The position numbers and the translations under genes were made by a program. Below, in pieces: positions 952 to 24,044 of a stretch of DNA of 64,000 nt; positions within the stretch are counted from its first letter, which is position 1; the number at the start of each line of letters is the position of its first letter. Under the pieces are notes generated by a model. The model was not told the DNA's origin. It ran no database searches and saw nothing but the letters and a program-made list of their open reading frames with translations. The DNA lies in sequence record MN445185.1. One strand, 5' to 3'. The DNA is from Escherichia phage vB_EcoM_EC001.

Positions 952-2331
952 TTAGGCTTTTGGCTCTGCCGCAGGAACATCCCAAATGGCCTTACGGGCC
1001 AAGACACGATATTCCACGTTATCGAATTCGAAGACGTAGAAGTAAACGTTAGGATCAACGTCGTCTACGAGCTTCACGATATCCAACGGGGTGGAGTGCG
1101 GATGGTACTCTTCGGCTGCAATTAACGCCTGGAAGAACAGATCCAACCACTCGGTGGTTTTCTTCGACATTCTCGCAATATCCGCATTATTAGTGCCGAT
1201 TAATGCGTAGTCAGGAATTGTGTCATGCAGGGTCGTTTTGCGTGAATCGTTTTCAGGGCCAGCGATAACCACGGCGTTCAACGATTTATAGATGGACGGT
1301 AAATCCGTTACATCGGTAGTTGGAATCGAGATCGCTCCACTATTTTTTTCCGTAATGGTTTGAACAGTCCACTCCCCAAATCGGGAGATTGCTTTGACCC
1401 AGAAATCATATGGGAGAATCGGCGAGTATAATGCCGCAACATCTTCCTCATTTGGAATCCCACGAATTGACCAACCGGGAACAATTGTGAACTTGGTGGT
1501 CGTAAAGATTTCTGGGAACACTTTGACACCCAACGCCACAGTAAAACTGGAGTTTGCCAAAATGTAATCACGTAACGCTTGTTTAATCCTGCTCGGGTTA
1601 CGACCCGCGCGTCCGTAGATGATAGCCGACATCGGTATCGGTAAGGTGGAGTCAAAGTCTTCCTGGTCGTGCCAAGTATAGATGTTAGTAATCAGGCTAG
1701 TGTACGGATAACCGTCAGCTAATTCGTTAATCTTATTATGGTGATCCGGAAGGTTGAACCCTTCCATTGCCTTTTCGACTACAGATTTCACAGCCAAGAA
1801 AGTATCAACCGGTAATATCGGCATTTGGACTTCAATTTCAAATCCAGTATAGTCCTGATTGAAATCTTCATCAGCAAACCAGAGAATAATCTGGTTATTT
1901 ACATCAGACGGGTCTTCGACTTTATCTGCTGTGGTTTCAAGTTTCCAACTGACCCAACGTGGGAACCAGTTACTGTTAGTCTGAATCATCGCGCCAGACT
2001 GAACACCGCTGATGACACTATTAAATTGCCCCAACAGCAAACGCTGGAATTCAACTTCGTCGTTTCTTAAGTTGCCCAGGATAGACTGTTGGTAGATCCA
2101 TTGGGAAACAGTAAGAACGTGGTCGCTAAAGACGGCCGGGGTCTTAATAGGCAACTCGTCACGTTTAGAAGTAAAAGCAACCAGTTCCACCTGCAGATTT
2201 TCTTTAGTAAAATACTGCTTGCTTTTAGCGAACGAATATGACAGCTCAGACAACTCACCTACCGGAGCGGTGTTGCCAGGGCCATTATCAATCAGAGCCG
2301 CTATTTGAATAAAGCCTTGTAAATCATACAT
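952..2331 (-). CDS. hypothetical protein (459 aa)
   Basis: Long ORF, ATG start; no recognisable catalytic motif. Confidence 0.65.
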   Translation of the reverse strand: MYDLQGFIQIAALIDNGPGNTAPVGELSELSYSFAKSKQYFTKENLQVELVAFTSKRDELPIKTPAVFSDHVLTVSQWIYQQSILGNLRNDEVEFQRLLLGQFNSVISGVQSGAMIQTNSNWFPRWVSWKLETTADKVEDPSDVNNQIILWFADEDFNQDYTGFEIEVQMPILPVDTFLAVKSVVEKAMEGFNLPDHHNKINELADGYPYTSLITNIYTWHDQEDFDSTLPIPMSAIIYGRAGRNPSRIKQALRDYILANSSFTVALGVKVFPEIFTTTKFTIVPGWSIRGIPNEEDVAALYSPILPYDFWVKAISRFGEWTVQTITEKNSGAISIPTTDVTDLPSIYKSLNAVVIAGPENDSRKTTLHDTIPDYALIGTNNADIARMSKKTTEWLDLFFQALIAAEEYHPHSTPLDIVKLVDDVDPNVYFYVFEFDNVEYRVLARKAIWDVPAAEPKA

Positions 2332-2349
2332 AATTAAAAACTCTCCGAG

Positions 2350-2865
2350 GTGAGCATGATAGCATCAGTTTTCAAACTGCTTCCATTCTTACAGATGCTG
2401 TGGGAAGCATTTAAACCGGGCGAGGGGGAGAAAGTAACACGAGCCGGGAAGATAGTGACACTAGTGATAGTGGCACTGGTCGCGTTCTCTGCATTTGTCT
2501 CATATGCCTATATTGTTCAATACCACACACTGGTTAGCGTCCAATCGCGTACTCAGTATCTGGAGATATCCTATAAGGAGCTAAAAGAGAAGTCCGATCA
2601 TGGCGAAGTGGAGAACAATAAGCTGTACGATCGTCTCTTCACATGCCTGGGTTCTCGATCGCCATATGATGGTACCAAATCTCCAACAGGGACAGGCACT
2701 GGGGCCGCGGTTCCGCCTGAAGAACTCAAGCCGGTAACACCACAGGCACCGTTAAATCCGTCTAGCCCGCCTGCCAAGAAACACCAGGCGGCTTCTCGCC
2801 CAGTGGGGTCGCAGGCGGCAAACGATTTCCGACAGGAGATTATCAAGACGCTTAATAATCCATGA
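2350..2865 (+). CDS. membrane-anchored protein (one TM helix, coiled-coil-like segment, Pro-rich C-terminus); possible i-spanin
   Basis: Hydrophobic segment KIVTLVIVALVAFSAFVSYAYIV; GTG at 2350 or ATG at 2356; SD-like site upstream; function is inference. Confidence 0.5.
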   Translation: MSMIASVFKLLPFLQMLWEAFKPGEGEKVTRAGKIVTLVIVALVAFSAFVSYAYIVQYHTLVSVQSRTQYLEISYKELKEKSDHGEVENNKLYDRLFTCLGSRSPYDGTKSPTGTGTGAAVPPEELKPVTPQAPLNPSSPPAKKHQAASRPVGSQAANDFRQEIIKTLNNP

Positions 2866-2874
2866 GGAGCATAC

Positions 2875-3354
2875 ATGAAGTTATTTTTGGTGGCGATACT
2901 GGTGCTATTGTTGACAGGATGCCCTGGGGTCATCCGTCACGTAGACCCAGATTACTCCTCAACCGGAGATTGGCCTTTTCGTCCTTTAGAACACCCACCA
3001 GTATATAACGGTGGGAACAGTCCTGAGGCGAAAAAGCTGGCAGGGAAAATGTTTGTTGCGGATGTGAACGCTTATGCTTATTACGTTTATCTGTACGCTA
3101 AGTCAGTAAACAACTATGCAGAAGCTAAAGGGTGGCACACCCCGATGACCGCACCGCTTTGTGAAGAGTTTATTCGCCCCACTCTTCATGGTATACCCTC
3201 CGGGATATATCTCGACCCTGGTTCTCGTAGCCCTCAAGACATTAGTCGTGATTTGTCACGACAGATTAAGTCTCTCATTCGCAGCTATCGCGAAGACAGA
3301 GAGTCTTTTAATCGTGCCTACGAACGGCACAAAAGTAGTTGCCTTGTGCAATGA
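2875..3354 (+). CDS. lipoprotein (159 aa); possible o-spanin or superinfection-exclusion lipoprotein
   Basis: N-terminus MKLFLVAILVLLLTGC is a signal peptide with lipobox L-T-G-C; GAGGAG SD 8 nt upstream. Confidence 0.6.
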   Translation: MKLFLVAILVLLLTGCPGVIRHVDPDYSSTGDWPFRPLEHPPVYNGGNSPEAKKLAGKMFVADVNAYAYYVYLYAKSVNNYAEAKGWHTPMTAPLCEEFIRPTLHGIPSGIYLDPGSRSPQDISRDLSRQIKSLIRSYREDRESFNRAYERHKSSCLVQ

Positions 3355-19272: not shown

Positions 19273-19635
19273 ATGCAAATCGGCTTCTTCTTTAATCGTC
19301 ACGGAATCGTGTTTGTTTGTGGTGTTCCGGATAGTGACGGGAGACGTGTACGCACGTTAGAACTCGACGAAACATCTATGGTCGAGTGGAAAGAGAAACT
19401 TGCTCCCTTCGCAGAAGGTAAGTTTCAACTGCTGCAGCTCTACACGCAAGCTGCATCACCACGCGTTGCTTTCTCCCGACTTGGAGACGGCGAAGACACC
19501 ACACATCTGGTTATCTTCAGTGGGCAGCCTGGTCGTGTATTGAGCGAATTATTGATGGGATTCAATCCGCCTAGCAAGCCCAGGATGAATACGTACAATG
19601 TGCACGACAGTAGCCAAATTCTTATTCTTCGATAA
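19273..19635 (+). CDS. hypothetical protein (120 aa)
   Basis: ORF with SD AAGGAG upstream. Confidence 0.5.
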   Translation: MQIGFFFNRHGIVFVCGVPDSDGRRVRTLELDETSMVEWKEKLAPFAEGKFQLLQLYTQAASPRVAFSRLGDGEDTTHLVIFSGQPGRVLSELLMGFNPPSKPRMNTYNVHDSSQILILR

Positions 19636-19683
19636 TTTACGGCCACGGCTGTACGTATGTAAAAGACCTCAAGGAGAACTATA

Positions 19684-20103
19684 ATGAACAATATCGCGTT
19701 TGAAAAAGGCGTTGGGTTACTTCTGAACAACACCATCGTCGCTGGCACTAATAACGCTAACTGGGAAGCGTTAGCGCAACGTCTCAAAGACAAGCCTGTG
19801 AAGATTGTGGTAACGAGCGAGCTGCCGTTAAACGGCACGATGGCGGACTGTGGTCCAATGTTTGCGGCGTTTAACATCGACTATGATTGCGGTTCCGCTT
19901 TCTTACAAAACGCCGCGTTACGTAGCCGTCTGTACAGCTGGCGTTTGCTGGGTCCGGTAAGTAAAGCCGCAGGTCAAATGGTTAACCAGGGCACACCGAT
20001 GTCGGGTGTAGAAGACCAGACTATCGCCGTTGTCGTTTCTCGCGCAACCGGCCAGCTTAACTTTGCAATCTGCTACGCGTATCAGGAGGAAGAGTATGCT
20101 TAG
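19684..20103 (+). CDS. hypothetical protein (139 aa)
   Basis: ORF with SD AAGGAGA upstream. Confidence 0.5.
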   Translation: MNNIAFEKGVGLLLNNTIVAGTNNANWEALAQRLKDKPVKIVVTSELPLNGTMADCGPMFAAFNIDYDCGSAFLQNAALRSRLYSWRLLGPVSKAAGQMVNQGTPMSGVEDQTIAVVVSRATGQLNFAICYAYQEEEYA

Positions 20104-20956
20104 TATTATTCAGCAGACTCAGGCGGTTGATGATTGGTACCGGCAAGCGAAGATTTACCAATACGGGACACGCGAGCAGCAGCTAGCCAAGTTCTATCGC
20201 ACATTAGGCGACGTCGCTGAAGGTGTGCAGAAGATGGACAACTTGAAAGTGGCGGCGGCCATGGGTCGCTCTCTTTGGGCGTTCGTTGGTCTGTTGCACT
20301 TCGGCAAGCACACGAACGTGGGAGATTTCGTTATTCCACTGGATGCAGCTATAAAAGACCGCACCACGGGAAACACCAAAGAGTTCCGTCTTCATAACCT
20401 TTTTGTTGTTGCCACCGAAGTGGTTGGACTCATATTGCAAGATGAGCACGAGCCCCACAGCTACGTTACCGAGCTGCATAGTTTGGCGCGACAATACCGA
20501 ATGTTGGCGCGTATCTGCGGCCTGGAATTCGGCCGTGTAATATACAACGGACATCGTGTGCTAATCAACACGAAAGGTGAAATGAACGGCATCGGGTTGT
20601 TTGTTCCCGCGTCTGATGATTTTACTGGCGATAAATTGCCTGGTTCTAGACAGATGTCTGGGCCAGCCATCTGTCTGATGTTCCAGACTGTCCTGGACAG
20701 TTGTGTCGCTACGCACCTTGCGCCCTATTGCCACCGGCCGTTTAAACGCGACGAGTTGCCGACAATCAATGCTGCACTCGCAACTACGTTAAACGAACTG
20801 CTGGACAAATATGTTCGTGACTCAGTGCGCTGGAATCGTATCCTGTTCGAACGTGTACCTGAAATAACCGCAGCCTACACAGATGGCGGTGTGAATGTGG
20901 TGATGAATGATGATCTACTTTACTTATTTGAAAGCTTAAAGAGGGATAGTATCTAA
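20096..20956 (+). CDS. hypothetical protein (286 aa), coupled to thymidylate synthase
   Basis: ATG at 20096 with SD AGGAGGA; stop overlaps the thymidylate synthase start (TAATG); MazG-like pyrophosphatase considered but motif match is weak. Confidence 0.5.
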
Positions 20957-21987
20957 TGAAGCAATACCTTGAAACGATGCAGAATATTCTGGATGAAGGG
21001 CATGTTAAAGGCGACCGTACTGGAACAGGGACGCTCTCCGTCTTTGGTCGCCAAATGCGTTTTGATTTGCGCAAAGGTTTCCCGCTAGTCACGACTAAAA
21101 AACTCCACCTGCGTTCTATTATTCACGAACTGCTGTGGTTCCTTAGTGGCGATACCAACACCAAATATCTGGAAGATAACGGCGTTACCATTTGGCGGGA
21201 GTGGCAAGATGAAAATGGGAACCTTGGCCCCCTGTATGGGGAACAGTGGAGACGTTGGAAAGATGTGAAACTGGTGCCTAAGAAAAATGCAGCTTTACTC
21301 GAGAAACTGCAAGATGCAGGATACGTGGATTATGGCGACGCGGACGACGGTTCACAAATGTTCGATGCGCGTGTACTTCTGAAAGAGCACGACCAAATCT
21401 CTAAGGTGATTGACCAACTGCGTAACGATCCTGACAGTCGCCGTATTATTGTCAGCGCATGGAATGTGGGTGAGTTGGATCAAATGGCGTTAGCTCCGTG
21501 TCATGCGTTCTTTCAGTTCTACACTCGTGAGCTGTCTATCGACGAGCGGGTGAATTGGGCAGAAGATAACGATAACGAACTCTGGTCTGATTATGTCCAC
21601 AGCACGTACGTACCCGCACCTAAGCGATTAGAGTGGTTGGATAAAGCCAACGTGCCAACCCGTATGTTGTCTTGTCAGCTGTATGCACGTTCCCAAGACT
21701 TCTTCCTGGGAACACCGTTCAACATCGCGTCTTACGCATTACTCGTGCACATGGTAGCTCAACAAGTTAACATGGTGCCAGGCGATTTCGTTTGGAGCGG
21801 CGGTGACGTGCATCTGTACTCCAACCATCTGGAGCAGGCCAAGCTGCAGCTGACGCGTGAACCTTTACCTTTGCCGAAACTGGTCATCAAACGTAAACCG
21901 GAATCTATCTTCGGTTATAAGTTCGATGATTTTGAGATCCAGGATTACGTATCACACGACCCAATTAAAGCGCCTGTCGCTATCTAA
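20956..21987 (+). CDS. thyA: thymidylate synthase (ThyA family) with two insertions relative to E. coli ThyA
   Basis: N-terminus [31 protein letters not shown], active-site [12 protein letters not shown]-terminus [25 protein letters not shown] all near-identical to E. coli ThyA (from memory). Confidence 0.92.
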
Positions 21988-21999
21988 ATAGGAGCGTTT

Positions 22000-22536
22000 A
22001 TGGTTGACAACGTCGTTCCATTCAAACCTAAAGTGGTGGTTGCTACGGACGAACCGCCGTTTATTCCTGTCAATGGACAGAAGATCATCGAGTTTCCAGA
22101 CGAGCATCGTGGGCAATTGCACGTTCCACAACCGGACGGGACGATGAAAGCTATCGGTTTCCCGATAGCTGAACAAGAATGGTGGACGCTTCTGGCCATC
22201 CAGATGATGTCGCGTGGTCTGGGTGTGTCTACGGAACCTGTCGTTCGCATTAATACCGACCCGTATATCCACGAACAAGGCAGTTGGATGGAACGACGTC
22301 GGACAATGGAGATGCAGATTAGCAAAGAAACGCTTTTGCAAATCGCCGAGTCCACGCCCTTTATCCTGACCTCATCTTTTAACGGGGATATGGATGAAGA
22401 CCTCTACATGCACCTTTCAGGCTTAGCAGCTGAACACCGCATTGCAGAAGAAGAGCCTATCTATACCGAAGCGATGATTATCCATCCGACTGGCTTAGAA
22501 GGTGATACCTTTAAACTGATTTGGGTGGAGCTATGA
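22000..22536 (+). CDS. hypothetical protein (178 aa)
   Basis: ORF with SD AGGAG upstream. Confidence 0.55.
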   Translation: MVDNVVPFKPKVVVATDEPPFIPVNGQKIIEFPDEHRGQLHVPQPDGTMKAIGFPIAEQEWWTLLAIQMMSRGLGVSTEPVVRINTDPYIHEQGSWMERRRTMEMQISKETLLQIAESTPFILTSSFNGDMDEDLYMHLSGLAAEHRIAEEEPIYTEAMIIHPTGLEGDTFKLIWVEL

Positions 22537-22784
22537 CTGACCGACTCAGTAAAACAATTCGACTACCACAACAGCGTAATGTTCGCAAAGGCGATGTTTT
22601 CACGGCGGAAGAATGGGTTGCATTAAAGGCCCTGTTCCCGGACGAAACCGATTCACATGTCGTCCAAATGGCATTGAAAGAGTTTGCAAAGAACGCTCCT
22701 GAAATGCTGCTGCGTAAGAAAGAAGAAGAACTGAATATGCTCCGTAACAGCGTAGACGTTCTCTTTAAAACAATGGAGAAATAA
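22533..22784 (+). CDS. hypothetical small protein (83 aa)
   Basis: ATGA overlap with upstream stop. Confidence 0.45.
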   Translation: MTDRLSKTIRLPQQRNVRKGDVFTAEEWVALKALFPDETDSHVVQMALKEFAKNAPEMLLRKKEEELNMLRNSVDVLFKTMEK

Positions 22785-22785
22785 G

Positions 22786-23553
22786 ATGATGAAACTCTTT
22801 GCGTTCTCCGATGAATTCTACACAGTGGAATTCGACGACTACGAATACGGGTTATTAGGGGCCGTCGACATGGAGGACGCTAAACGGCAGCTTCCTACTA
22901 GCGAAATAGAAATCATTGAGATTGGGGAAACTAATCTTAGTGAGATTTTGATGCTGGGGCGGCGACCACGACCTGCGGAACCTGAGCAGGAAAGAGAGCA
23001 AGCGCAAGCGATTTGTCTGGTTTATGAGCCGATAGACCCTGCAGCGATAGCGAAGGTAGTCGATACGTTACGGCCACAGATTGGCGTCGCGATTGAAAAT
23101 TATCGCTGGGCTCGTTTCTCGGGCGACACGCCGATATTTTCGAATAAGCACTGGTTGTTATGTATCAACGACGACACGATAATGGTACCGTTAACAGGGG
23201 AGAAGAATTTTGAAGATAACTTCGTCCCTGGCGAAGAGTCTGTTATCTTCGAGTATAGCCATGTCATCGGAAAGCCGAGCTTCTACCAAGTTCTGATTGA
23301 TGTCTTGACTCACGTCGGTCGAACCATCGAATACCACTACTGGGCACGCCAGGCGCGTTCTAAATGGTTCTCGTTGACGTACGTCGAAGGTTGGGAACGT
23401 GTTGTTGAAAAGATTGACGGGCGCTATGAGCAGATATGGTTCCTGAACCCGGCATTCCGTGAAGAATTACCCGCATGGGTAAAAGAAGAGGCGAGCAAGC
23501 TGACGGTTGGCTTTACTAAGCAGGGCGCGCCGTATATGGTTAACTACAAATAA
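22786..23553 (+). CDS. hypothetical protein (255 aa)
   Basis: Long ORF immediately after upstream stop. Confidence 0.6.
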   Translation: MMKLFAFSDEFYTVEFDDYEYGLLGAVDMEDAKRQLPTSEIEIIEIGETNLSEILMLGRRPRPAEPEQEREQAQAICLVYEPIDPAAIAKVVDTLRPQIGVAIENYRWARFSGDTPIFSNKHWLLCINDDTIMVPLTGEKNFEDNFVPGEESVIFEYSHVIGKPSFYQVLIDVLTHVGRTIEYHYWARQARSKWFSLTYVEGWERVVEKIDGRYEQIWFLNPAFREELPAWVKEEASKLTVGFTKQGAPYMVNYK

Positions 23554-23564
23554 GGTGAAAACAG

Positions 23565-24044
23565 ATGTCTATAACTCGGATCGATTATCGTGCCGTGGTA
23601 AAAGAACTGTCCAAAGGTCTTATCGAACTGGACTCCGATGAAGCCCGTAGCTGTGGCTTTTTACCGCATATTGCACTGAGTGAGTTCCGCACTATCCGCT
23701 ATGGAGCTGGTCGTCAGAAAGGCGTTACAACACACGCTGTTGATATGTCAGCAAAGTTCCACGGCAGCGTTCTGTATCTGGTTCACAACGAAGCATTACG
23801 GAGCGAAGTGGTGGAGAAATTCCATGAAAAAGCCGCTGGGAACGGTTGGTTGACCGTACACTGTAACTACTTGCCCGAGGGTTGGAAACGCGCGACGGGT
23901 GCTGGTATATCCGGCTACGAGAAATTCGGCTTGGTTATTGTCGACGAAGCGGGTTTCTTCTTCAACAAGTTCAGTTACGATAAAATCTATCGCAGTCTGG
24001 TCGACGTAGTAACGCCAGACGTTGTGATACACCTGATTAATTAA
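23565..24044 (+). CDS. hypothetical protein (159 aa) with Walker-B-like LVIVDEAG
   Basis: Contains GAGRQKGVTT (non-canonical P-loop-like) and LVIVDEAG; too degenerate to assign. Confidence 0.45.
   Translation: MSITRIDYRAVVKELSKGLIELDSDEARSCGFLPHIALSEFRTIRYGAGRQKGVTTHAVDMSAKFHGSVLYLVHNEALRSEVVEKFHEKAAGNGWLTVHCNYLPEGWKRATGAGISGYEKFGLVIVDEAGFFFNKFSYDKIYRSLVDVVTPDVVIHLIN

What the first reader, a model, noticed from the sequence alone, without database searches (positions are those of the whole stretch)
21262..21652. Host-like thymidylate synthase carrying two phage-specific insertions
The protein is near-identical to E. coli ThyA at its N-terminus, active site ([11 protein letters not shown]) and C-terminus, yet is 343 aa versus ~264 aa. 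That is because of a ~36-aa insertion (after GEQWRRW; about 21262-21376) and a ~43-aa insertion (between FFQFY and LSCQLY; about 21523-21652). High host similarity suggests recent capture from an enterobacterial host, and the insertions could mediate phage-specific interactions. The comparison is from memory of the E. coli sequence.
Basis: partly seen in the sequence, partly recalled or inferred. Interest (0 to 1): 0.5.

Follow-up and report, generated by a model that had tools for sequence, protein, structure and literature searches.

The report
Phage thymidylate synthase with grafted modules
This is the thymidylate synthase gene of a SPN3US-like giant phage; it has a normal catalytic core, and the two extra segments are old, folded surface modules found almost only in phages and swapped between them, not signs of a recent gene theft from the host.

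Summary
ORF 20956-21987 (+, 343 aa) is a full-length ThyA. It aligns to E. coli ThyA (264 aa) in three blocks, leaving two in-frame insertions: ins1 (aa 103-144, nt 21262-21387, net +36) and ins2 (aa 192-236, nt 21529-21663, net +43).

The window is a Seoulvirus (SPN3US-like) jumbo phage.
- Not recent capture: the core is about 76% identical to E. coli ThyA at protein level but only 67-71% at DNA level. Synonymous sites are saturated (pS 0.74) and GC content is uniform.
- Old insertions: both occur in phiKZ/201phi2-1-like phages (predicted-structure match TMq 0.92), other enterobacterial jumbo phages and some smaller phages.
- Phage-restricted: an ins2-specific DNA pattern hit 3 of 100,044 bacterial species genomes. 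Two had phage-like neighbouring genes and the third a phage-family neighbour.
- Real protein: AlphaFold2 folds both confidently (pLDDT 95.7), and both are under purifying selection (pN/pS about 0.2).
- Mobile: the ins2 motif pattern (T-x-x-E-R ... L-D-x-x-G-V-P-R) recurs at three different ThyA loops in different lineages. Here ins2 was imported from an Erwinia-phage-like allele by a gene-conversion tract of about 135 nt. That tract ends at the site where relatives carry a group I intron with a homing endonuclease.

All catalytic residues are intact. What the modules do remains inferred.

The parts
20956..21987 (+). thyA coding sequence (343 aa plus stop): a thymidylate synthase of the phage insertion-bearing subfamily
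   Evidence: ORF list. Pfam PF00303 at 372.5 bits covering profile positions 1-266 of 266. PHROG 160 thymidylate synthase. 95% nt identity to the annotated thymidylate synthase of Escherichia phage vB_EcoM_Lh1B.
21262..21387 (+). Insertion 1 (aa 103-144), between the QWRRW helix and the DQI helix. It is a predicted beta-alpha-beta-beta mini-domain.
   Evidence: Gap in the HMMER alignment to E. coli ThyA. AF2 secondary structure E101-108, H112-120, E124-130, E137-145, with block pLDDT 89-98. Purifying selection: pN 0.158 vs pS 0.737 against pSal-SNUABM-04. Conserved G122, Y123 and G127.
21529..21663 (+). Insertion 2 (aa 192-236), at the tip of the beta-hairpin between FFQFY and LSCQLY. It is a predicted acidic helical module with conserved ends E-R (197-198) and P-x-R (234-236).
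   Evidence: Gap in the HMMER alignment. AF2 helices H195-204, H208-211, H221-230; block pLDDT is 70-97 and lowest in the middle loop. Purifying selection: pN 0.199 vs pS 0.731 against CR5. Column conservation. Net charge -5 here; the family median is -5.
21549..21681 (+). Recombinant tract. Here the window matches the Erwinia phage Caitlin allele rather than its close relative SPN3US.
   Evidence: 2 mismatches to Caitlin across the tract, against 70 of 139 positions different from SPN3US. Upstream (to 21543) and downstream (from 21714) the window follows SPN3US.
21685..21713 (+). Cluster of 14 window-lineage-specific substitutions in the normally invariant LYQRSAD.FLGV motif (here [12 protein letters not shown], with the Ser246 codon changed from AGT to TCC). 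It is centred on R245|S246 (21690/21691), which corresponds to the group I intron insertion site in related phages.
   Evidence: Alignment A3 and column classification. Intron position in OMKO1 and RisingSun thyA. Motif variants across the family.
21499..21501 (+). Codon of the catalytic nucleophile Cys182 (E. coli C146) in the PCH motif
   Evidence: Invariant column C182 in alignments A1, A2 and A4. It aligns to E. coli C146.
20093..20956 (+). Upstream MazG-like nucleotide pyrophosphohydrolase gene. Its stop codon overlaps the thyA start (TAATG), so it is a probable operon partner supplying dNMP.
   Evidence: Sequence. PHROG 10269, plus a weak match to PHROG 7855 'mazG nucleotide pyrophosphohydrolase' (E 1.4e-4). 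The orthologue in pSal-SNUABM-04 is annotated as an NTP-PPase_SsMazG domain protein. No Pfam hit.

Best explanation
The gene is the thymidylate synthase of a SPN3US-like (Seoulvirus) jumbo phage. It makes dTMP from dUMP and methylene-tetrahydrofolate by the ordinary ThyA mechanism. Every catalytic and substrate-binding residue and the C-terminal lid are intact.

It belongs to a large ThyA subfamily that is essentially restricted to phages. In this subfamily, compact, folded, mostly acidic modules are grafted in frame into surface loops of the canonical core. This protein has two:
- ins1, a small beta-alpha-beta-beta unit in the small-domain loop after W101;
- ins2, a helical module at the tip of the beta-hairpin that leads into the LSCQLY dimer-interface strand.

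The modules are old. They are shared with phiKZ/201phi2-1-like phages, are translated, and are under purifying selection. They also behave as exchangeable cassettes. The ins2 motif pattern (T-x-x-E-R ... L-D-x-x-G-V-P-R) turns up at three different ThyA loops in different lineages. In this genome, ins2 was replaced recently by a gene-conversion tract of about 135 nt from an Erwinia-phage-like allele. That tract ends exactly where related phages carry a group I intron with a GIY-YIG homing endonuclease, so endonuclease-driven repair is the likely engine of the shuffling (inferred).

The modules most likely play a non-catalytic surface role. They may change how the dimer packs or what it binds in the infected cytoplasm, rather than changing the chemistry. 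This last step is inference, not shown. I give about 0.9 to 'canonical ThyA of an old phage-specific insertion subfamily, not a recent host capture', about 0.6 to homing-endonuclease-linked cassette exchange, and about 0.4 to an adaptive interaction or quaternary-structure role.
For: Identity and chemistry:
- PF00303 matches end to end.
- The core aligns to E. coli ThyA in three blocks.
- Conserved in the family alignments: R21, E58, W80, W83, Y94, R162/R163 (Ec R126/R127), C182-H183 (Ec C146-H147), R245-S246 (Ec R166-S167), D248, N256 (Ec N177), H286, Y288 and the C-terminal KAPVAI.

The insertions are real protein:
- AF2 gives pLDDT 95.7 and pTM 0.93, with defined secondary structure in both insertions.
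- ins1: pN 0.158 vs pS 0.737. ins2: pN 0.199 vs pS 0.731. The core is comparable.
- No Rfam match in 19500-23600.

Old and phage-wide:
- ins2 tblastn hit 65 phage records, and all 50 listed are 223-322 kb jumbo phages, including phiKZ-like OMKO1, SL2 and PA02, Goslar, CR5 and Erwinia phages.
- The best BFVD structural match is 201phi2-1 thymidylate synthase: TMq 0.92 at 34% identity. Ordinary 278-294 aa phage enzymes give 0.71-0.75.
- Of 132 non-redundant relatives among the best metagenomic cluster representatives, 108 carry a site-2 insert and 86 a site-1 insert.
- The subfamily also occurs on a 78-kb phage contig and in Delftia phage RG-2014, 73.9 kb.

Rare in bacteria: 3 pattern hits in 100,044 species genomes; two have phage-like neighbours and the third a phage-family neighbour.

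Not recent: nt identity to E. coli thyA is 67-71%, pS is 0.74 and GC is uniform.

Cassette behaviour:
- The mosaic was mapped to the base.
- An ins2 profile hits L-site inserts at 18-20.6 bits, against a maximum of 11.9 in 1,020 shuffles. It also hits long site-1 inserts at up to 18.9 bits.

Intron at the tract end in relatives: Rfam RF00028 at 69.4 bits in OMKO1 thyA, and GIY-YIG ORFs in OMKO1 and RisingSun.

Location of ins2: the following strand, LSCQLYQR, is the sequence of the dimer-interface-binding peptide designed against human TS (PMC8041318).
Against: - No experiment or dimer model shows what the modules touch. The linked pseudo-dimer AF2 run was low-confidence and uninformative.
- The variable middle of ins2 can be swapped between near-identical genetic backgrounds (window vs SPN3US). 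This argues against a tightly co-evolved partner.
- No conserved neighbouring gene accompanies insertion-bearing thyA across distant phages.
- Enzyme activity is inferred from sequence only.
- The link between the recombination tract and homing endonucleases is positional. No endonuclease gene or intron is present at thyA in this window.
- The module similarity between loops rests on modest scores (12-21 bits).
- The NJ tree is star-like and was not bootstrapped. Bacterial ThyAs were barely sampled, so the origin of the core is unresolved.
Confidence: 0.6

Rival explanations
1. The insertions are tolerated passengers with no adaptive function. Under this reading they are in-frame DNA deposited in permissive surface loops by the intense recombination and homing-endonuclease traffic at phage thyA. 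They persist because removing them cleanly is rare and because, once folded into the protein, mutations in them are harmful.
For: - The three sites are surface loops where inserts of very different length occur: 17-133 aa at site 1, 30-95 aa at the L-site, and whole 200-390 aa segments in metagenomic relatives.
- Interiors are highly variable between lineages (pN 0.5-0.67).
- Alleles are swapped between phages.
- Introns and homing endonucleases sit in or next to thyA in relatives.
- No partner gene was found by synteny.
Against: - Purifying selection within allele types is as strong as in the core.
- The insertions are retained from SPN3US-like to phiKZ/201phi2-1-like phages.
- Anchor residues are conserved and the acidic character is consistent: 90% of 227 ins2 modules are net negative.
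- The predicted fold is confident.
Confidence: 0.25
2. The modules are an arms-race surface. Under this reading they shield or diversify the exposed face of an enzyme that a host defence sensor, a host inhibitor or a competing phage recognises, and allele swapping is selected for.
For: - The distribution is phage-restricted.
- Interiors are hypervariable between conserved anchors.
- There was a recent cassette replacement in an otherwise near-identical background.
- Substitutions cluster in the normally invariant motif at the intron homing site.
Against: - No defence system or inhibitor that targets ThyA was identified here.
- Within allele types, selection is purifying rather than diversifying.
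- The homing-site cluster concerns nuclease recognition of DNA, not the protein surface.
Confidence: 0.12
3. One reading: a host thyA captured recently from an enterobacterium, which then acquired two new phage-specific insertions.
For: - The core is 76% identical to E. coli ThyA. This is higher than to phiKZ-like (56%) or Rhodocyclales (64%) enzymes.
- E. coli ThyA clusters with enterobacterial jumbo-phage cores.
Against: - DNA identity is 67-71%, synonymous sites are saturated (pS 0.74) and GC is ameliorated.
- The same insertions are present in many phage genera, including Pseudomonas phages.
Confidence: 0.04
4. The enzyme has altered chemistry, for example a dUMP hydroxymethylase feeding a modified base, and the insertions remodel the active site.
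For: - ins1 lies in the small domain that borders the folate site (established structural knowledge of ThyA).
Against: - All thymidylate-synthase residues are conserved, including N256 (Ec N177), Y94, W80/W83 and the intact C-terminal KAPVAI lid.
- The conserved positions in the insertions look like structural anchors, not catalytic residues.
Confidence: 0.04
5. The extra segments are unspliced introns or inteins, or an annotation or assembly artefact.
For: Phage thyA genes are classic intron hosts, and relatives do carry a group I intron.
Against: - Both segments are in frame, at 126 and 135 nt.
- There is no Rfam match.
- Substitution patterns are codon-level.
- The segments are present in dozens of independent genomes.
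- They are too short for inteins.
- The intron in relatives sits at a different position, after YQR.
Confidence: 0.01

Closest known systems
Canonical bacterial ThyA (E. coli ThyA, 264 aa; PDB 1qqq, 2tsc and many others)
   Same: Same fold, same catalytic residues and same C-terminal lid. The 264 core positions are 76% identical, and HMMER E-values are around 1e-122.
   Different: E. coli has a 6-residue loop where ins1 sits and a 2-residue hairpin turn where ins2 sits. No PDB chain matches either insertion by sequence.
Thymidylate synthases of phiKZ-like nucleus-forming phages (201phi2-1 B3FJL1, phiKZ gp235, OMKO1 thyA)
   Same: Same subfamily. ins1 and ins2 are present at the same sites, and the structural match covers the insertions (TMq 0.92). 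A TS-GFP fusion is reported to stay outside the phage nucleus in PhiPA3 infection (PMC9067925).
   Different: Those enzymes are longer (about 457-461 aa) because of a further insert of about 135 aa at the L-site. Their cores are only 50-56% identical. OMKO1 thyA is interrupted by a group I intron.
Long bacterial ThyAs with a small-domain insertion (Lactobacillus casei type; solved examples Enterococcus 3uwl, 315 aa, and Staphylococcus 4dq1, 321 aa)
   Same: The principle is the same: a folded insertion of about 50 aa in a surface loop of an otherwise normal ThyA. These solved enzymes are about 50 residues longer than E. coli ThyA.
   Different: From established knowledge of the L. casei structure, that insertion lies between IWDEWA and GDLGPVYG (the 'L-site'). 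The window protein has nothing there. Some relatives do (P0056, P0059, P0078, RisingSun), but with a module resembling ins2.
Bacteriophage T4 Td
   Same: A phage ThyA with lineage-specific surface inserts and a group I intron with a homing endonuclease in the gene. The T4 inserts were proposed to contact partners in the dNTP-synthesising complex (my recollection of Finer-Moore et al. 1994, not checked here).
   Different: By my recollection of the sequence, the T4 inserts are at other positions. T4 Td did not appear among relatives carrying ins1 or ins2. The T4 intron site is, from memory, 21 nt downstream of the YQR|S site used in OMKO1 and RisingSun.
Eukaryotic thymidylate synthase inserts (human TS)
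   Same: Human TS also has extra residues in the loop where ins1 lies. HMMER aligns human TS through this region in one stretch: query 3-190 to human 32-203.
   Different: The human insert is only about a dozen residues and is not homologous. Human TS has no insertion at the ins2 hairpin.
Rickettsia palindromic elements (selfish in-frame insertions in protein-coding genes)
   Same: Short (about 100-150 nt) in-frame insertions that end up as surface segments of otherwise normal proteins and recur at different positions (general knowledge, not checked here).
   Different: The ThyA module is single-copy per genome: one matching place in every phage record, and none elsewhere in the 64-kb window by six-frame profile scan. 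It is confined to thyA, and no terminal inverted repeat or multi-gene spread was seen.

Membership tests
Thymidylate synthase ThyA (EC 2.1.1.45, Pfam PF00303) | Full-length match to the family profile above the curated threshold | tested here: met
   PF00303 at 372.5 bits against a cut-off of 24.3, covering profile 1-266/266 and protein 2-343.
Thymidylate synthase ThyA (EC 2.1.1.45, Pfam PF00303) | Catalytic cysteine in the P-C-H motif (E. coli C146) and the four phosphate-binding arginines (R21, R126', R127', R166) | tested here: met
   C182-H183, R21, R162, R163 and R245 align to these positions. They are invariant or nearly invariant in 130 relatives.
Thymidylate synthase ThyA (EC 2.1.1.45, Pfam PF00303) | Uracil-specifying Asn (E. 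coli N177; Asp in dCMP hydroxymethylases), plus D169, H207, Y209, E58, W80, W83, Y94 and the C-terminal lid ending in a hydrophobic residue | tested here: met
   N256, D248, H286, Y288, E58, W80, W83 and Y94 are present, and the C-terminus IKAPVAI is identical to E. coli. Q165 of E. coli is Ala244 here.
Thymidylate synthase ThyA (EC 2.1.1.45, Pfam PF00303) | ThyA fold | tested here: met
Thymidylate synthase ThyA (EC 2.1.1.45, Pfam PF00303) | Obligate homodimer that converts dUMP to dTMP | not testable with these tools
The linked pseudo-dimer AF2 model gave pTM 0.82 but pLDDT 76 and no contact read-out.
Phage insertion-bearing ThyA subfamily (defined here) | Module of about 35-55 aa between FQFY and LSCQLY, with E-R near its start and P-x-R at its end | tested here: met
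   E197-R198 and P234-x-R236 are present. In the 130-sequence alignment these columns are 79-87% and 65-86% conserved. The ins2 profile scores the window at 62-63 bits.
Phage insertion-bearing ThyA subfamily (defined here) | Second module between QWRxW and (I/H)DQI, with a conserved G-(Y/F) | tested here: met
   G122 is 84% and Y123 64% conserved among sequences that have the insertion. The same layout is seen in OMKO1 and Viktualia.
L. casei-type ThyA (small-domain 50-aa insertion) | Insertion between IWDEWA and GDLGPVYG | tested here: not met
   The window protein reads [17 protein letters not shown], with no extra residues.
Group I intron or intein interrupting thyA | Catalytic RNA structure, or intein splicing motifs of sufficient length | tested here: not met
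   No Rfam match at E <= 1 in 19500-23600. The segments are 126 and 135 nt, in frame, and under codon-level purifying selection. As a positive control, RF00028 was found in OMKO1 thyA.
dCMP/dUMP hydroxymethylase branch of the ThyA superfamily | Asp at the N177 position (dCMP enzymes), truncated C-terminus, closer similarity to hydroxymethylases | tested here: not met

The most novel reading that the evidence does not exclude
The 'E-R ... L-D-x-x-G-V-P-R' unit may be an autonomous, portable protein module. On this reading it has been grafted repeatedly into three different surface loops of phage thymidylate synthases. In one phage (Viktualia) it even exists as a free-standing tandem ORF directly downstream of thyA. 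It would give phage ThyA a function the bacterial enzyme lacks, such as docking to another component of the phage nucleotide-supply machinery or masking the enzyme from a host factor. Alleles would be shuffled between phages by homing-endonuclease-triggered gene conversion at the adjacent intron site.
Probability: 0.2. Interest if true: 0.65.

Novelty: new variant of a known kind. Interest (0 to 1): 0.42.

Why it matters
Thymidylate synthase is among the most conserved and best-studied enzymes. A large, apparently undescribed subfamily shows that phages have remodelled its surface over a long period without touching the chemistry. In this subfamily, folded modules sit at the dimer-seam hairpin and in the small domain.

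If the modules have a function, they mark a phage-specific interaction in nucleotide supply, and deletion and cassette swaps could probe it directly. The base-resolved cassette swap, ending at an intron homing site, is a clean natural example of how selfish endonucleases may reshuffle coding sequence between phages of different genera.

There is also a practical point. High protein similarity to the host is not evidence of recent capture here, because synonymous sites are saturated.

I found no paper describing these insertions. The searchable library lacks most of the classical thymidylate synthase structural literature, so I cannot rule out an earlier description.

Tried and rejected
- **Intron or intein reading.** Rejected: no Rfam hit, the segments are in frame, and selection acts at codon level.
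- **Multi-copy selfish element (RPE-like).** Rejected: there is one matching place per phage genome, and no other copy in the window by six-frame profile scan.
- **Conserved partner gene by synteny.** The 178-aa downstream ORFs of the window and of a distant relative are unrelated. Upstream genes differ between lineages: MazG-like only in the Seoulvirus/Machinavirus group, an endonuclease VII-like gene elsewhere.
- **Donor of the unique 29-nt patch.** Goslar shares the peptide ARSQD..LGT but not the DNA.
- **Homologues of the Viktualia free-standing module ORF.** The first attempt timed out. The repeat found none. tblastn found matches only inside thyA of two Pseudomonas jumbo phages.
- **AlphaFold database search.** The afdb50 library was not available.
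- **Pseudo-dimer AF2** (two copies joined by a 40-residue linker, 14-sequence alignment). pLDDT 76 and pTM 0.82, with no gain of confidence in ins2, so it was inconclusive.
- **Two-gap DNA pattern for any insertion length.** A motif-anchored one-gap pattern was used instead, so bacterial ThyAs with a non-homologous insertion at this site would have been missed.
- **Literature searches.** No description of the insertions was found.
- **Dense bacterial sampling for a rooted phylogeny.** The NJ tree is only indicative.
Full report
**What is in the sequence**

The finding lies inside ORF 20956-21987 on the + strand, which encodes 343 aa. The protein matches the thymidylate synthase family PF00303 end to end, at 372.5 bits against a cut-off of 24.3.

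HMMER aligns it to E. coli ThyA structures in three blocks: residues 1-102 to 1-102, 145-191 to 109-155, and 237-343 to 158-264. Two in-frame insertions follow:
- ins1 is aa 103-144 (nt 21262-21387). It replaces six E. coli residues, for a net gain of 36.
- ins2 is aa 192-236 (nt 21529-21663). It replaces two residues, for a net gain of 43.

The E. coli sequence I used is identical to the RefSeq thyA translation. 'Near-identical' overstates the similarity, because the 264 core positions are 76% identical.

**Where the window comes from**

The gene is 95% identical in DNA to the annotated thymidylate synthase of Escherichia phage vB_EcoM_Lh1B. It is 90-97% identical, in two pieces, to those of SPN3US and about 30 other Seoulvirus jumbo phages of about 240 kb.

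**The insertions are real, folded protein**

AlphaFold2, run with a 130-sequence alignment, gives mean pLDDT 95.7 and pTM 0.93.
- ins1 is predicted as strand 101-108, helix 112-120, strand 124-130 and strand 137-145, with block pLDDT 89-98.
- ins2 is predicted as helices 195-204, 208-211 and 221-230. Its middle loop is less confident, with block pLDDT 70.

Both insertions are under purifying selection wherever a comparison is informative. For ins1, pN is 0.158 against pS 0.737 (window vs pSal-SNUABM-04). For ins2, pN is 0.199 against pS 0.731 (window vs CR5). These values are comparable to the core.

There is no RNA-family match anywhere in 19500-23600, and the segments are far too short for inteins.

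**The insertions are old and phage-wide**

- The 120 best homologues in the 5.8-billion-protein collection are all 274-406 aa. Many come from contigs of 220-245 kb.
- A tblastn search with ins2 plus four flanking residues on each side found 65 phage records. All 50 listed are jumbo phages of 223-322 kb. They include phiKZ-like Pseudomonas phages (OMKO1, SL2, PA02), Goslar, CR5 and many Erwinia phages.
- Reading those genes shows ins1 and ins2 at the same sites in OMKO1 and Viktualia, plus a third insertion of about 135 aa.
- The best match in the viral predicted-structure library is the 201phi2-1 thymidylate synthase. Its TM-score is 0.92 over the query at 34% identity, so both insertions are covered. 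Ordinary phage enzymes of 278-294 aa reach only 0.71-0.75.
- I aligned the best 150 cluster representatives from an exhaustive HMMER scan to E. coli ThyA. Among 132 non-redundant sequences, 108 carry an insert of at least 20 aa at site 2. Eighty-six carry at least 12 aa at site 1, and 36 carry at least 20 aa at the 'L-site' between IWDEWA and GDLGPVYG. Only 10 have none.
- The subfamily is not limited to nucleus-forming jumbo phages. One member sits on a 78-kb phage contig, and another is in the 73.9-kb Delftia phage RG-2014.

**They are rare in bacteria**

I used a degenerate DNA pattern that requires M-A-L-x-P-C-H, Q-F, a gap of 126-156 nt, and then P-x-R-x-L-S-C. It matches the window once and shuffled sequence never. 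It matched 3 contigs in one genome each of 100,044 bacterial and archaeal species, against 29 contigs in IMG/VR.

The three 'bacterial' hits are as follows:
- Ectothiorhodospira: neighbours include a dUTPase, an exonuclease and an XRE regulator.
- Thioalkalivibrio: the neighbour is a DUF4326/SLOG protein that matches phage protein families.
- Clostridia MAG: a 4.3-kb contig carries a DHFR-TS fusion, a GIY-YIG endonuclease and ClpP.

 The pattern is motif-anchored, so a non-homologous bacterial insertion at this hairpin would have been missed.

**Not a recent capture**

- blastn finds E. coli thyA in all 5,426 genomes at only about 70.7% identity, in three pieces.
- In a codon alignment, the window and E. 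coli differ at pN 0.209 and pS 0.743, which is saturation.
- GC is 0.48-0.51 in every core block and in both insertions, against 0.488 for the whole window.

The core is nonetheless Enterobacterales-like. Core identity is 76% to E. coli, 64% to a Rhodocyclales enzyme and 50-56% to phiKZ-like enzymes. E. coli ThyA is as close to the CR5 core (81%) as the enterobacterial jumbo-phage cores are to one another (66-96%).

In an unbootstrapped NJ tree, E. coli ThyA falls inside that phage cluster. This could mean old exchange of core segments between these phages and their hosts, or a slow clock in this branch. I could not sample enough bacterial ThyAs to decide.

**Cassette behaviour**

The window and SPN3US are 91-100% identical in DNA over codons 11-195. 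Over ins2 they drop to 38-60%. There the window is 96-100% identical to Erwinia phage Caitlin, whose core is otherwise only 60-80% identical.

Base by base, the pattern is:
- up to 21543, the window follows SPN3US;
- from 21549 to 21681, it follows Caitlin, with 2 mismatches against 70 of 139 differences from SPN3US;
- from 21685 to 21713, it carries a 29-nt cluster of 14 changes found in neither phage;
- from 21714, it follows SPN3US again.

The unique cluster rewrites the usually invariant LYQRSAD.FLGV as [12 protein letters not shown], and changes the Ser246 codon from AGT to TCC. It is centred on R245|S246.

In OMKO1 and RisingSun, thyA is interrupted at exactly that point (YQR|S). The interrupting sequence is a group I intron in OMKO1 (Rfam RF00028, 69.4 bits) and carries a GIY-YIG endonuclease ORF in both. 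Other lineages also vary this motif; for example, LSCFYMMRSNDYLLGAPFN occurs in 33 clusters.

I infer the following, but have not shown it. Endonuclease cutting at this site, followed by repair from a co-infecting phage, moves the adjacent ins2 cassette between genomes. The local substitutions would then reflect target-site escape.

**One module pattern, several loops**

ins2 has conserved ends and a variable, acidic middle. The conserved ends are E192-L193, E197-R198, L228-D229 and V233-P234-x-R236. The median net charge is -5 over about 48 aa, and 90% of 227 examples are net negative.

I built a profile from ins2 alone, with the core flanks trimmed.
- It hits L-site inserts of other proteins at 18-20.6 bits, against a maximum of 11.9 bits in 1,020 shuffles.
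- It hits long site-1 inserts of P0132 and P0125 at 13-19 bits, with the same T-x-x-E-R ... L-D-x-x-G-V-P-R layout.
- In Pseudomonas phage Viktualia, the 116-aa ORF that overlaps the thyA stop consists of two tandem copies of the module (48.5 bits). That ORF has no homologues elsewhere except inside thyA of two other Pseudomonas jumbo phages.
- Within the 64-kb window, and within each phage genome, the module occurs only in thyA.

These scores are modest. I regard the shared origin of the modules as likely but not proven.

**What the modules do**

This is inference. ins2 emerges from the hairpin that leads into the strand LSCQLY. In human TS, that strand (LSCQLYQR) is the sequence of the designed peptide that binds the dimer interface (PMC8041318). 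ins1 lies in the small domain that borders the folate side of the active site (established structural knowledge). Neither carries a residue that looks catalytic.

Several observations argue against one tightly co-evolved partner:
- The same module type works in three loops.
- Alleles can be exchanged in a near-identical background.
- No neighbouring gene travels with the insertion-bearing enzyme.

Deep retention, strong purifying selection, the conserved anchors and the consistent negative charge argue against pure junk.

My best reading is a non-catalytic surface role, affecting dimer packing or a loose interaction in the infected cytoplasm. That is where a TS-GFP fusion is reported to stay in PhiPA3 infection (PMC9067925). 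A tolerated-passenger origin is the main rival. An attempt to see inter-subunit effects with a linked pseudo-dimer model was inconclusive.

**Context**

The upstream gene (20093-20956) overlaps the thyA start at TAATG and is weakly MazG-like. Its orthologue in pSal-SNUABM-04 is annotated as an NTP pyrophosphatase. This fits a small dNMP-to-dTMP supply unit.

**Novelty and score**

GenBank already annotates this gene as thymidylate synthase. I found no description of the insertions, their distribution or their exchange, but most of the older structural literature is outside the searchable library.

I file this as a new variant of a known kind. It is of moderate interest: the enzyme is ordinary in chemistry, but the phage-restricted grafted modules and the intron-site-linked cassette swap are worth a bench test.

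Noticed in passing
L004 (Pseudomonas phage OMKO1) 1665-2770; L006 (Erwinia phage RisingSun) about 1690-2772: In these relatives thyA is split after LSCQLYQR|S by an intervening sequence that carries a GIY-YIG endonuclease ORF. In OMKO1 the 5' part matches the Rfam group I intron model (RF00028, 69.4 bits). The annotated second exon of OMKO1 starts too late: the true exon begins at SVDTFLG.
   Followed up: partly
window 21685-21713: There are fourteen lineage-specific substitutions in 29 nt of the most conserved ThyA motif (LYQRSAD.FLGV becomes [12 protein letters not shown], and the Ser codon changes from AGT to TCC). They sit exactly at the position where relatives carry the intron. This looks like escape from a homing endonuclease, but that was not tested.
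   Followed up: partly
window 20093-20956: The upstream gene overlaps the thyA start codon (TAATG). It is weakly MazG-like (PHROG 7855, E 1.4e-4), and its orthologue in pSal-SNUABM-04 is annotated as an NTP pyrophosphatase. In Salmonella phage SPLA3 the same position is annotated 'restriction endonuclease', which is probably a mislabel.
   Followed up: partly
L007 (Pseudomonas phage Viktualia) 1989-2339: A 116-aa 'hypothetical protein' overlaps the thyA stop codon and consists of two tandem free-standing copies of the ins2-type module. No homologues were found except inside thyA of phages PS119XW and phiLBG22.
   Followed up: yes
L013 (Clostridia MAG contig JAGBBI010000217.1) 1561-3171, minus strand: A 536-aa DHFR-thymidylate synthase fusion carries an L-site insert and an ins2-type module. 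It is flanked by a GIY-YIG endonuclease and a ClpP protease on a 4.3-kb contig. This is probably phage DNA binned into a bacterial MAG.
   Followed up: no
proteins P0124, P0127, P0134, P0145, P0187, P0135, P0175, P0206 (metagenomic ThyA representatives): These ThyAs are 458-582 aa, and their PF00303 match is split by 200-390 aa of sequence with no Pfam family. One (P0135) has a weak NUMOD-like endonuclease hint. They may be in-frame endonuclease or other large inserts.
   Followed up: partly
L011 (Ectothiorhodospira shaposhnikovii contig) 27-644; L012 (Thioalkalivibrio sp. ALJ21 scaffold) 1990-2946, minus strand: These are the only two large bacterial scaffolds (about 290 kb) with an ins2-type ThyA. 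Ectothiorhodospira neighbours include a dUTPase, a DnaQ-like exonuclease and an XRE regulator; the Thioalkalivibrio neighbour is a DUF4326/SLOG protein. This suggests prophage or phage contigs. Whether these bacteria also have a normal thyA was not checked.
   Followed up: partly
phage records LR535901-LR535917 (SPFM phages): About ten SPFM genome records match the window's thyA in 10-12 short pieces covering only 58-64% of the gene. Sister records match in two pieces. This looks like sequencing or assembly errors in those records. It may underlie the published 'positive selection' call on this gene (PMC6614189).
   Followed up: no
alignment of window, SPN3US and E. coli thyA: Divergence between the window and SPN3US is very uneven along thyA: dS is 0.036 in ins1 against 0.47 in the core, and the last 20 codons are only 53-71% identical. 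E. coli ThyA sits inside the cluster of enterobacterial jumbo-phage cores. Together these point to more recombination in this gene than the one tract mapped.
   Followed up: no
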